In this document: positions 36,844 to 39,830 of the stretch, in pieces
How the letters are laid out: each line of letters begins with the position of its first letter
Position numbering within the stretch: the stretch's first letter is position 1
DNA from: the human T2T-CHM13v2.0 reference genome, Homo sapiens
NCBI RefSeq assembly: GCF_009914755.1
Contig: NC_060938.1
DNA: 64,000 bases
Reading direction: 5' to 3' (one strand)
Position numbers and translations under genes: made by a program
The notes under the pieces: model-generated
What the model was told of the DNA's origin: nothing
The model's database searches: none
What the model saw: the letters and a program-made list of their open reading frames with translations, nothing else

Positions 36844-39375
36844 GGCCAGGCGTGGTGGCTCATGGCTGTAATCCCAGCACTTTGGGAGGCCGAGGCGAGT
36901 GGATCACCTGAGATCAGGAGTTCGAGACCAGCCTGGCCAACATGGAGAAACCCTGTTTCTACTAAAAATACAAAAATTAGCCAGGTGGCGGGTGCCTGTA
37001 ATCCCAGCTACGCAGGACGCTGAGGCAGAAGAATCGCTTGAACCTGGGAAACAGAGGTTGCAGTGAGCTGAGATCGTGCCACTGCACTCCAGCCTGGACA
37101 ACAGAGTGAGACTGTCTCAAAAAAAAAAAAAAAAAAACAGGAAAGAGAGAAGAAAAATGTGAATGGGCTGCTAGGACGCACGGTTGCTGGATGCCGGGCT
37201 ATCTGGCTACCACTTCCTCTCCACTCCCTCCCCATCGCCCAGCACCTTCCAGGGATCAGAGCCCCACTCACAAAGTGCCCTTGGTGCCATATGGAGCTCA
37301 CCAGATGAGAAGACCACAGTTCTCTAACTAGAGACCAAGAAGAAGAGGGCCCCTTGGGTCTTGGGACTGCAGGGCCTAAAGCAAGGGGGGTCTCCAGGCA
37401 GCCCCTGGGCACTGAGTTCATGCCCCCAGCCATGGTCCTGGGAGGCTGAACAGAGTTCCCGCTCTCCTCGGCACAGGGCAGGGTGAGGCTGGGGGCCACC
37501 TGGACAGCTCTGCGCTCCCACTGACTGTCAAAGGCCACCACTCCCATGCCAGATCTGTCCCCTCACCCCACCCTAGCCGCCCCTTGTAATCTGTACCCAC
37601 TACTTCAGCCCTGGCACAGGAAGACCTTTCCCTATCTCCTGTGGTAACAGAGACCCTTAGCCTCGCCGCCATGAAAGCTTGGAAACATCTTTCCTCTCCT
37701 TGGTCTCGGTCATTTAGCAAACATTGTACCTTACTAATTAAGCTCACTGTAAAGGGGTGATGGTCAGGTGAACACAAATCATTAATGGATGCTCTGGAGA
37801 GACAAAGAACAAAAAAAAGCTAGCACTTATTAAGTGCCTACTGTGTGCTGACAGGAGTGGTAAGAGATTCCGTGAATATGTTACACCTGTATATACTGTT
37901 ATGTTTAATGAATTATTTATCAAAATAGATAATACATATACACACAATTTTTTAAACTAAAATAAGGGTGTAGAGGAAACCACAGGCTTCCCTCACTCCC
38001 CTGCCCTCCAGCCATCTGATTCTGTTTCCCACAACCAACCAGTAACCAGTTTTTCATACACTTTTCCAGAAATTAAAAAATATTTATATGTATATACATA
38101 TTTCATTTTCACAAGTGAAATAAAACGTACTGTCCATCTTCCTTTTTTAAAAATAATACCGTCAGCCGGGCGCAGTGGCTCATGCCTGTAATCCCAGCAC
38201 TTTGGGAGGCCAAGGCGGGTGGATCACCTGAGGTCAGGAGTTCGAGACCAGCCTGACCAACATGGAGAAACCCCATCTCTACTAAAAATACAAAATTAGC
38301 CTGGCGTGGTGGCACATGCCTGTAATCCCAGCTACTCAGGAAGCTAAGGCAGGAGAATAGCTTGAACCCGGGAGGTGGAGGTTGCAGTGAGCCGAGATTG
38401 CGCCATTGCACTCCAGCCTGGGCAACAAAAGCGAAACTCCGTCTAAAAAAAAATAAATAAATACTGTCTTGGAGATTGAATGTGGAATAGCAGCACAGTA
38501 TTCCACTGCATGAATGTGAACTTTTTTCTTCTCTTTAAAATTACGTAAAAGTTGGCCGGGTGCAGTGGCTCACACCTAGGAGCGTCTGTCCATTAGCTTG
38601 TATGTCTGTCCGAATGGAAGTGCCTCCCTGGGCCGGGTGCGGTGGCTTACGCCGGTAATCACAGCACTTTGGGAGGCCAAGGCAGGAGGATCACTTGAGC
38701 CCAGGAGGTCGAGGCTGCAGTGAGCTGTGGAGGCACCACTGTACTCCAGCCTGGGTGACAAAGCAAGACCCTGTCTCTAAAAAACGGGGTGATGGGGCTC
38801 TTCCGAGTGAAAAGGTGGAACTACTGACCTAGTCCCACCCTGTCAGTTCACCATGAGGAAACAGGCTAGAAAAGGGGTTGACTTGTCCTTAGTCTGGAGC
38901 TGCCTTGTCAGGTTCTTCCAGGTACCACTTGATCACGTGGACGGGATGGCATTAGCCGTGCACACTGGGCAAATGCTCCGCCACCCTCCCTGCTCTGCTG
39001 GGCTTGGGAGGAGTAAGCGGTGGATGAGATGTCCCTGATGTGTTGGGCCTCCAAGGAGGCCCTTTATTTATTTGTTTGTTTGTTTGTTTGTTTATAGTTG
39101 AGTCTCACTCTGTCACTCAGGCTGGAGTGCAGTGGTGCTACCTCAGCTCATTGCAACCTCTGCCTCCCCGATTCAAGCGATTCTCCTGCCTCAGCCTCTC
39201 AAGTAGCTGGGATTACAGGCATGCGCCACCACGCCTGGCTAATTTTTTGTTTTTTAGTAGAGACGAGGTTTCACCATGTTGGCCAGGCTGGTCTCCAACT
39301 CCTGACCTCAAGTGATCTGCCCGCCTTGGCCTCCCAAAGTGCTGGGATTATAGGCGTGAGCCACCGCACCTGGCC
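36844..39375. mobile_element. Alus: 36844-37138 (+), 38165-38463 (+), 38554-38785 (+, chimeric), 39063-39375 (-)
   Basis: Alu consensus; TSDs aaaatgtgaRtgggctg and aaataatacYgtc. Confidence 0.92.
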
Positions 39376-39399
39376 CAAGGAGGCACTTCCATTCGGACA

Positions 39400-39830
39400 G
39401 ACATACAAGTGAACGGACGGACGCTCCTAGGATGGGTGCTATGCATTGCTTAAGAAGGGGAACCTTTGAGGACCCTTGAAATCCCTCCCCTCTGATGCCT
39501 TGGAGGAAGGCGGACTGGCCCAGATTCCCGGACCGGCAACCGCCACCTGCCTCTCTGGTCTCCTCCCACCCCGAGGGGATCGCGCTCGCGCCGCGCCACT
39601 CGCGCGGCCACCGCTAGAGGGAGCCGGGAGCGTCTCCGAAGTCTCCCGCTTGCGGCTTCGCTCAGGCGCTGCCTTTCACCCGCCTCGCAGGGGCTGCGAG
39701 GCTCCGACAAGACTGGTCCCTTCTTGTCATTAGGCCCTAGGCCCGCAGCCCTCCGCGGCCCCGACCTCTAGGAGGTGCCCAGCACCAATAGGCCGACCCT
39801 ATGCTCCCTACCCAGCCCTCCGCTATGAAA
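39400..39830. promoter_or_regulatory. Small orphan CpG island with a CTCF-like motif
   Basis: CpG-dense (gatcgcgctcgcgccgcgccactcgcgcggcc); CCGCTAGAGGGAGC at 39611-39624 matches the CTCF core. Confidence 0.7.

What the first reader, a model, noticed from the sequence alone, without database searches (positions are those of the whole stretch)
38554..39431. An Alu that captured 56 bp of unique DNA in inverted orientation from 850 bp downstream
Seen: an Alu starts at 38554 (ggccgggtgcagtggctcacacct) and breaks off at cct. Then 38575-38630 is the reverse complement of unique sequence 39376-39431 (5 mismatches in 56, two of them CpG decay). The copy continues into the head of the neighbouring antisense Alu, whose 5' end is at 39375, and then resumes as a J-type right arm to ~38785. 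The ORF track echoes this ([10 protein letters not shown] on both strands). Inference: a template switch entered through cct microhomology and exited through Alu-Alu homology between two inverted Alus. It leaves a >100-bp inverted repeat around a ~0.7-kb loop, directly beside the orphan CpG island/CTCF site.
Basis: partly seen in the sequence, partly recalled or inferred. Interest (0 to 1): 0.72.

Follow-up and report, generated by a model that had tools for sequence, protein, structure and literature searches.

The report
Inverted flank copy inside an Alu
An old DNA copying accident pasted 56 bases of unique sequence, backwards, into a nearby Alu repeat using the neighbouring inverted Alu as a guide; it is a clean example of a known kind of mutation scar and probably has no function.

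Summary
38575-38630 is the ungapped reverse complement of 39376-39431 (51/56). These are the only two copies in the whole T2T genome. The antisense AluS (39065-39375) has a 13-nt target-site duplication (39052-39064 / 39376-39388). So 39376-39431 is the original, and the copy, which carries that duplication next to an Alu head, was made after the AluS inserted.

Copy and source stay ~90% alike through Alu positions 1-53 (38631-38683). Identity then drops to 23/30, and the rest (38684-38785) carries the variants of the window's oldest Alus. The left junction is a 3-nt CCT overlap after a 24-nt orphan Alu head. Removing 38578-38654 (77 nt) restores an in-register Alu head.

Best reading: one DNA-level switch-and-return copying event, either break repair by fold-back or a replication template switch. 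One junction lies in inverted Alu-Alu homology, the other in microhomology. The order of the two junctions cannot be told.

The mechanism is already known, and the event is probably neutral. The ancestral allele could not be checked because no primate genomes were available. Interest is low to modest.

The parts
38554..38577 (+). Orphan Alu head (Alu positions 1-24, left-arm type). Read as the retained 5' end of the recipient Alu.
   Evidence: family D3. It differs from other window Alu heads at 1-4 positions. Joining it to 38655 onward gives an in-register Alu head.
38575..38577 (+). CCT microhomology at the left junction, shared by the recipient Alu and the source.
   Evidence: alignment. 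Microhomology of 3 nt or more occurs at 5.7% of 20,000 random inverted junctions in the window. Similarity beyond the CCT is not significant (235 of 2823 background CCT sites score as high).
38578..38630 (-). Inverted copy of unique DNA 39376-39428. With the CCT it makes the 56-nt copy of 39376-39431. It includes a copy of the AluS target-site duplication (38618-38630).
   Evidence: 51/56 ungapped match, K2P distance 0.097. Only 2 copies in the genome.
38631..38683 (+). Alu positions 1-53, left-arm type. This is the zone that holds the in-register crossover from the source AluS head back to the recipient.
   Evidence: 48/53 match to the source head, K2P 0.101, against 23/30 (K2P 0.28) in the next 30 nt. 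The source ties for rank 1 of 39 window Alus. The combined state TGCGG plus CCAAGG is shared with 2 of 34 aligned window Alus, one of them the source.
38684..38785 (+). 3' part of the recipient Alu: an older (J-like) right-arm sequence and a short A tail.
   Evidence: MAFFT places it on the right arm. Of its 19 deviations from the window majority, 11, 10, 10, 8 and 7 are shared with the five oldest window Alus and 3 with the source. It differs from the source right arm at 29 of 105 compared columns.
38786..39064 (.). Non-Alu spacer between the tails of the two inverted Alus. It includes the left copy of the AluS target-site duplication at 39052-39064.
39065..39375 (-). Antisense S-type Alu, whose head served as the homology guide. 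Its poly-T end is at 39065 and its 5' end at 39375.
   Evidence: It differs from the window majority consensus by 11.5%. Its target-site duplication is CAAGGAGGC[C/A]CTT.
39376..39431 (+). Original unique 56 nt (the donor). Its first 13 nt are the right copy of the AluS target-site duplication. It lies in exon 1 of the predicted lncRNA LOC105370564 (hub annotation).

Best explanation
This is a scar of one DNA-level 'switch-and-return' copying event. It happened well after the antisense S-type Alu inserted at 39065-39375. The event took place in a sense-oriented, older Alu at 38554-38785, which lies tail-to-tail with the AluS across a 279-nt spacer.

My preferred order of steps is as follows:
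1. A break or stalled 3' end arose in the recipient Alu near position 24/25.
2. The strand end carrying Alu sequence annealed to the inverted AluS. This could be a fold-back within the same resected strand or an annealing on the sister chromatid.
4. The new end was released and rejoined to the other end, which retained Alu positions 1-24, through a CCT microhomology.

The net change is either a 77-nt insertion (53 unique nt plus a second copy of Alu positions 1-24), or a deletion-insertion if the recipient was once a full-length Alu.

Shown here: the donor and the direction of copying, the uniqueness of the 56 nt, the two junctions, and the mosaic make-up of the chimera. Inferred: the trigger, the enzymes, the order of the two junctions, and whether the template was the same strand or the sister chromatid.

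The event lengthened an inverted Alu pair by 56 nt of unique sequence. It most likely has no function.
For: - The 56-nt inverted match is 51/56 and ungapped. It has only 2 copies in the 3.1-Gb assembly.
- The AluS target-site duplication matches 12/13, and 0 of 500 shuffles score as high. This fixes 39376-39431 as the original and dates the copy after the AluS insertion.
- K2P distance between copy and source is 0.097 over the unique 56 nt and 0.101 over Alu positions 1-53. It jumps to 0.28 in the next 30 nt. This places an in-register crossover inside the Alu head.
- The 3' part carries old-Alu variants and is not derived from the source. This rules out a plain inverted duplication.
- The CCT overlap lies at the other junction (chance of 3 nt or more is 5.7%).
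- Removing 38578-38654 restores an in-register Alu head.
- Copy-to-source distance (~0.10, so ~0.05 per lineage) is under half of the AluS's 11.5% distance from the window consensus. The event is therefore later than the AluS insertion.
- The mechanism has precedent. Inverted Alus 82-90% alike served as fold-back junctions in human inverted duplications, with templated insertions from within 1 kb (PMC3907307, passages read). Inverted repeats near a break channel repair into intra- or inter-molecular annealing (PMC6103520, abstract read). Switch-and-return template switches create inverted copies in human genomes (PMC5453318 and PMC9435742, passages read).
Against: - No ancestral (pre-event) allele was seen, because no primate genome was available.
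- No target-site duplication could be found for the recipient Alu. The best candidate is not significant (103 of 500 shuffles score as high). So its original limits, and whether it was full-length, are open.
- Evidence that the copy runs beyond the first bases of the Alu head is weak. The source head only ties with A51857- at 5 differences among 39 window Alus. The shared derived states are CpG transitions, also seen together in 1 other of 34 aligned Alus.
- A 3-nt microhomology arises by chance at 5.7% of random junctions.
- The template lies 0.75-0.85 kb away. That is farther than the short-range events in the published scans I read, one of which discarded candidates whose distance between switch points exceeded 250 bp (PMC9435742, methods passage; the point labels were lost in the extracted text).
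Confidence: 0.75

Rival explanations
1. RNA-level chimera made during retrotransposition. Reverse transcriptase copying an old-type Alu RNA at the 38785 target jumped, within Alu homology, onto a minus-strand transcript that carries the AluS in sense with its upstream flank. It then jumped again at CCT onto the 5' end of an Alu RNA.
For: The hub annotation places a minus-strand lncRNA starting at 39554 whose exon 1 (39370-39554) covers the 56 nt and runs into the AluS head. Such a transcript is therefore plausible. The orphan piece ends exactly at an Alu 5' end, and the chimera ends in an A tail.
Against: It needs two template jumps, and an old-type Alu RNA still active after an S-type Alu had inserted. 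No target-site duplication flanks 38554-38785 (103 of 500 shuffles score as high). The copy-to-source distance of ~0.10 gives the age of the event but does not separate the two models.
Confidence: 0.08
2. Two-step history. A larger inverted duplication of flank plus AluS landed next to, or inside, an Alu. Later its 3' part was overwritten or deleted by Alu-Alu gene conversion or by recombination between the left and right arms.
For: The inverted arms run 139 nt at 88%. The element at 38631-38785 joins a left-arm head to a right-arm tail, which some rearrangement must explain.
Against: It needs extra events. Identity drops sharply after Alu position 53, from K2P 0.10 to 0.28. The 3' part shares only 3 of its 19 deviations with the source. 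The in-register orphan head at 38554-38577 is left unexplained.
Confidence: 0.08
3. A free DNA fragment (39293-39431 or similar) was captured at a break in the Alu by end joining, without use of homology.
For: A short microhomology at one junction is compatible with end joining.
Against: The right junction is exactly in register between two Alus with no indel. Homology-independent capture would not be expected to give this.
Confidence: 0.03
4. Chance similarity, a known repeat, or an assembly artefact.
For: None found.
Against: E is 2.1e-13 against the whole genome, with only 2 copies. The two copies have diverged by ~10%, including CpG decay. A recent artefact would not show that.
Confidence: 0.01

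Closest known systems
Template-switch mutations: the 'four-point' switch-and-return model of Loytynoja & Goldman 2017 (PMC5453318) and Loytynoja 2022 (PMC9435742). I read passages of both.
   Same: A stretch is replaced or extended by the reverse complement of nearby sequence in one switch-and-return event. This creates or lengthens an inverted repeat.
   Different: The template here lies 0.75-0.85 kb away, and the return is guided by about 50 nt or more of Alu homology. The published scans target short range; the 2017 paper says it does not try to explain long-range switches. The 2022 paper also reports counts after removing loci masked as repeats. An event of this kind would likely be missed or filtered by those scans.
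Fold-back (snap-back) synthesis at resected breaks. Sources: human inverted duplications (PMC3907307, passages read), annealing between inverted repeats near a break in yeast (PMC6103520, abstract read), and synthesis-dependent or polymerase-theta end joining with templated inverted insertions (PMC2943611, PMC5728401, PMC4912351, PMC11724301; search listings only).
   Same: Priming at inverted homology in cis, copying of nearby sequence in inverted orientation, and closure by a few nucleotides of microhomology. Inverted Alus 82-90% alike are documented fold-back junctions.
   Different: Here synthesis stopped after roughly 80-110 nt and the end was rejoined locally. The result is a small insertion, not a dicentric chromosome or a large inverted duplication. 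The insertion is also far longer, and templated from far farther away, than the ~5-34-bp inverted insertions mentioned in the PMC11724301 abstract listing.
Alu-Alu gene conversion and Alu-mediated rearrangement
   Same: A mosaic Alu is formed by homology between two nearby Alus.
   Different: The transferred tract leaves the Alu and carries 56 nt of unique flank. The donor is inverted, and one junction is non-homologous.

Membership tests
Template-switch (switch-and-return) mutation | The novel segment is the reverse complement of nearby sequence. | tested here: met
   51/56 ungapped match, 746 nt between the arms.
Template-switch (switch-and-return) mutation | One event converts the ancestral allele into the derived one; the ancestral allele is known from an outgroup. 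| not testable with these tools
   No primate genomes were available. The only support is the in-silico removal of 38578-38654, which restores an in-register Alu head.
Template-switch (switch-and-return) mutation | Short range, as in the published scans. | tested here: not met
   The template is 0.75-0.85 kb away. One published filter discarded candidates whose distance between switch points exceeded 250 bp (PMC9435742, methods passage).
Fold-back / synthesis-dependent microhomology end joining | Inverted templated insertion from the same chromosome region. | tested here: met
Fold-back / synthesis-dependent microhomology end joining | Inverted homology at the priming junction. | tested here: met
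   In-register Alu/Alu crossover within positions 1-53. The two Alus form a predicted stem.
Fold-back / synthesis-dependent microhomology end joining | Microhomology at the closing junction. | tested here: inconclusive
   A CCT overlap of 3 nt is present, but 3 nt or more occurs by chance at 5.7% of junctions. Extended similarity is not significant.
Fold-back / synthesis-dependent microhomology end joining | Dependence on a break and on particular enzymes. | not testable with these tools
   This is a historical event; no tool here can test it.
Alu-Alu gene conversion | The transferred tract is confined to homologous Alu sequence and carries donor-specific bases. | tested here: not met
   The tract extends 56 nt into unique flank. 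Donor-specific bases within the Alu are only two shared CpG states.
Retrotransposed chimera / 5' transduction | Target-site duplications flank the whole insert. | tested here: not met
   The best flank match is 8/9 and lies 25 nt from the A tail; 103 of 500 shuffles score as high.
Retrotransposed chimera / 5' transduction | The Alu body is derived from the source Alu. | tested here: not met
   The 3' part shares 3 of its 19 deviations with the source and differs from it at 29 of 105 compared columns.
Interspersed repeat (the 56 nt) | Many copies in the genome. | tested here: not met
   2 places in the genome in two searches. The tool's counts are lower bounds.

The most novel reading that the evidence does not exclude
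Inverted Alu pairs may regularly lengthen their own arms by copying unique flank through Alu-guided fold-back synthesis. That would be a class of mutation that published template-switch scans undercount, because they work at short range and set repeats aside. At this locus the event may also matter for RNA. In the minus-strand lncRNA precursor, the last 62 nt of exon 1, its 5' splice site (CAG|GT inside the AluS head) and the start of the intron are predicted to pair with the intronic copy in a ~139-bp duplex. Such a duplex could mask the splice site or attract A-to-I editing.
Probability: 0.15. Interest if true: 0.4.

Novelty: new member of a known kind. Interest (0 to 1): 0.2.

Why it matters
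This is an unusually legible example. The Alu's own target-site duplication tells donor from copy, and the Alu subfamily mosaic locates the crossover. It shows how two nearby inverted Alus can guide repair synthesis into unique DNA and so lengthen an inverted repeat.

It adds no new mechanism, and no function is indicated. Its use is as a worked case and as a search pattern (an inverted non-Alu match that abuts Alu ends) for a genome-wide count of such events.

Tried and rejected
- **Extended 'microhomeology' left of the CCT.** The local aligner ran on into 38561-38574. This is not significant: 235 of 2823 background CCT sites score as high (one search was the same script, stopped by a coding error).
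- **Target-site duplication of the recipient Alu.** None was convincing.
- **Ranking the source head among window Alus, to show how far the copy runs into the Alu.** The source only tied for first of 39. The haplotype check gave 2 of 34.
- **Ranking the 3' part by total differences.** This was uninformative, because S-type and old Alus are interleaved in the list. Only the shared-deviation count separated them.
- **Small survey for the same architecture.** It covered the window plus the next 200 kb, 264 kb in all, with 246 Alu blocks. It found 6 inverted non-Alu pairs within 5 kb, and 2 of them abut Alus on both inner ends. One is this case. The other is a single Alu inserted in the centre of a short palindromic element, which is a different thing. 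So there were 0 further cases in the 200 kb not chosen for the finding, too little to set a rate.
- **Literature on the lncRNA.** There were 0 papers for LOC105370564 in the searched library.
- **Event simultaneous with the AluS insertion.** I considered and rejected this. Copy-to-source distance of ~0.10 is less than twice the AluS's 11.5% distance from consensus.

Full report
**What is there.**
- The + strand reads, from 38554, a 24-nt Alu head (GGCCGGGTGCAGTGGCTCACACCT).
- Then come 53 nt that are not Alu.
- From 38631 to 38785 there is a complete-looking 155-nt Alu-like element that ends in a short A run.
- About 280 nt further on lies an antisense Alu. Its poly-T end is at 39065 and its 5' end at 39375.
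- The repeat finder reports 38575-38713 and 39293-39431 as inverted arms of 139 nt, 88% complementary, 579 nt apart.
- Column by column, the non-Alu part (38575-38630 against 39431-39376) matches at 51 of 56 without a gap.

**Not chance, and not a repeat.**
- The window's own 3.1-Gb assembly holds exactly two places that match 39376-39440: the place itself, and 38575-38630 on the other strand (91%, E 2.1e-13).
- A longer query (39382-39560, E up to 10) again found only these two places. The second match ends exactly at 39431.
- The tool warns that its repeat counts are lower bounds, but nothing suggests a repeat family.
- After masking all Alu-like sequence, this pair is the only close-range inverted non-Alu match in the window apart from a self-palindrome.

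**Which is the original.**
- The antisense Alu is flanked by CAAGGAGGCCCTT (39052-39064) and CAAGGAGGCACTT (39376-39388). This is a 12/13 match that 0 of 500 shuffles reach. It is an ordinary target-site duplication.
- It follows that 39376-39431 is continuous with the DNA into which this Alu inserted.
- The stretch at 38575-38630 carries the same 13 nt directly against an Alu 5' end. It is therefore a copy of the finished insertion junction and is younger than that insertion.

**How far the copy runs.**
- K2P distance between the two sides is 0.097 over the unique 56 nt and 0.101 over Alu positions 1-53 (38631-38683). It is 0.28 over the next 30 nt.
- From 38684 on, the element is not like the source. 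MAFFT aligns it to Alu right arms.
- In that part it deviates from the window's majority Alu at 19 columns. It shares these deviations mainly with the five most diverged (oldest) Alus of the window: 11, 10, 10, 8 and 7 of 19. It shares only 3 with the source.
- The motif it shares with those old Alus (GGAGGAT..TTGAGCC.AGGAG..GAGGCTGCAGTGAGCT.TG) is what I recall as J-type. That subfamily name comes from memory, not from a tool.
- The source Alu has the S-type forms of these columns.
- So the crossover from source back to recipient lies in register somewhere in Alu positions 1-53.
- Its exact place is poorly resolved. The source head has 5 differences from 38631-38683 and only ties with one other Alu for best of 39.
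- The two shared derived states are CpG transitions that one other of 34 aligned Alus also combines.

**The other junction.** The recipient reads ..CACACCT|GTAATC.. in an intact Alu. The source, reverse-complemented, reads ..CCCATCCT|AGGAGCG... The product reads ..CACACCTAGGAGCG.., so the overlap is CCT. Three or more shared bases occur at 5.7% of 20,000 random inverted junctions. The apparent similarity further left is not significant (235 of 2823). Removing 38578-38654 (77 nt) joins Alu position 24 to position 25 in register.

**Mechanism.** The product is what one switch-and-return copying event gives. A 3' end carrying Alu sequence pairs with the inverted AluS, copies through its head and 56 nt into its flank, and is then joined back through CCT.

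The product does not reveal the order. I prefer homology-first priming (a fold-back on the resected strand, or annealing to the sister chromatid) followed by a microhomology join. My reason is that about 50 nt or more of Alu homology is a far better primer than 3 nt. That preference is an inference.

Precedents:
- Fold-back junctions in inverted Alus 82-90% alike, and templated insertions from within 1 kb, in human inverted duplications (PMC3907307, passages read).
- Inverted repeats near a break diverting repair into intra- or inter-molecular annealing (PMC6103520, abstract read).
- Switch-and-return template switches that create inverted copies in human genomes (PMC5453318 and PMC9435742, passages read).
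- Snap-back synthesis in alternative end joining (PMC4912351, PMC5728401, PMC2943611, PMC11724301; search listings only).

**What stays open.**
- Was the recipient a 155-nt Alu that joined a left-arm head to a right-arm tail, so that the event was a pure 77-nt insertion? Or was it a full-length old Alu that lost about 135-165 nt in the same event? I cannot tell.
- No target-site duplication of the recipient could be found (103 of 500 shuffles score as high).
- The orphan head is of left-arm type (GGCTCAC), like the window's left arms.

**Age.** Copy and source differ by ~0.10, so ~0.05 per lineage. The AluS differs from the window majority consensus by 11.5%. The event is therefore clearly later than the AluS insertion, perhaps at around half its age.

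At least three of the five differences in the unique part are changes in the copy. Two are CpG losses where the source keeps the CpG. One is a base where the left target-site copy agrees with the source. This fits a source that lies beside a CpG-rich, probably unmethylated, patch. That last point is an inference.

**Rivals.**
- An RNA-level chimera made by reverse-transcriptase jumps is possible, because the annotated minus-strand lncRNA would carry the flank and the AluS in sense. But it needs two jumps and a late-active old Alu RNA, and there is no target-site duplication.
- A larger inverted duplication that was later overwritten needs extra steps. It does not explain the sharp change of identity or the in-register orphan head.
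- Homology-free capture of a fragment does not explain the in-register Alu junction.
- Chance or artefact is excluded.

**Surroundings.**
- A CpG-rich patch spans about 39400-39800 (GC 0.62-0.72, CpG observed/expected 0.72-0.98). It holds one CTCF-like match, CCGCTAGAGGGAGC at 39611, to a relaxed consensus that I recalled.
- The hub's annotation puts the lncRNA start at 39554. By that annotation the island is a predicted promoter rather than an orphan.
- The lncRNA's exon 1 ends at 39370, so its donor is CAG|GTGCGG at Alu positions 6|7 (and the hub table).
- Folded as minus-strand RNA, 38560-39554 forms one long stem (-551.8 kcal/mol, z -17.6). In that stem the end of exon 1 and this donor pair with the intronic copy. 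This is a prediction only.

**How common.** In 264 kb (the window plus the next 200 kb; 246 Alu blocks) this was the only case of a unique flank copied beside a second, inverted Alu. The 200 kb not chosen for the finding held none. That is too little to estimate a rate, and further sequence could not be fetched.

**Verdict.** The kind of event is known, this instance is a clear example, and no function is indicated. The decisive test, an ancestral allele in other primates, could not be run here.

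Noticed in passing
window 39370-39375 (minus strand): By the hub's annotation, exon 1 of the predicted lncRNA LOC105370564 ends at 39370. Its 5' splice site is therefore CAG|GTGCGG, made by positions 6|7 of the antisense-annotated AluS head. A G-to-A change in the head (GGCCAGG) gives the CAG.
   Followed up: partly
window 39400-39800; motif at 39611-39624: A small CpG-rich patch (GC 0.62-0.72, CpG observed/expected 0.72-0.98) at the annotated lncRNA start. 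It holds one CTCF-like match, CCGCTAGAGGGAGC, to a relaxed consensus that I recalled.
   Followed up: partly
window 17592-17730 and 19075-19213: A direct repeat of 139 nt at 97.8% identity, 1345 nt apart, not Alu. Possibly the two ends of one element or a recent local duplication.
   Followed up: no
window 54550-54626 and 54626-54702: A perfect (100%) tandem duplication of 77 nt.
   Followed up: no
window 4261-4322: A self-complementary (palindromic) stretch of about 62 nt, 85.7%.
   Followed up: no
L006:3934-3989 and 4280-4336: A single Alu inserted in the centre of a short palindromic element whose arms begin TTAGGTTGGTGCAAAAGT. It looks like a mariner-derived miniature element (name recalled, not tested). 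It superficially mimics the finding but is a different structure.
   Followed up: partly
L014:787-903 and 2758-3166: An inverted pair of a non-Alu segment (~89% identity) with an Alu inserted into one of the two copies. Origin not examined.
   Followed up: no
L016:6506-6559 and 8159-8212: A GC-rich inverted pair of 54 nt at 92.6% identity, 1.6 kb apart, that does not abut Alus.
   Followed up: no
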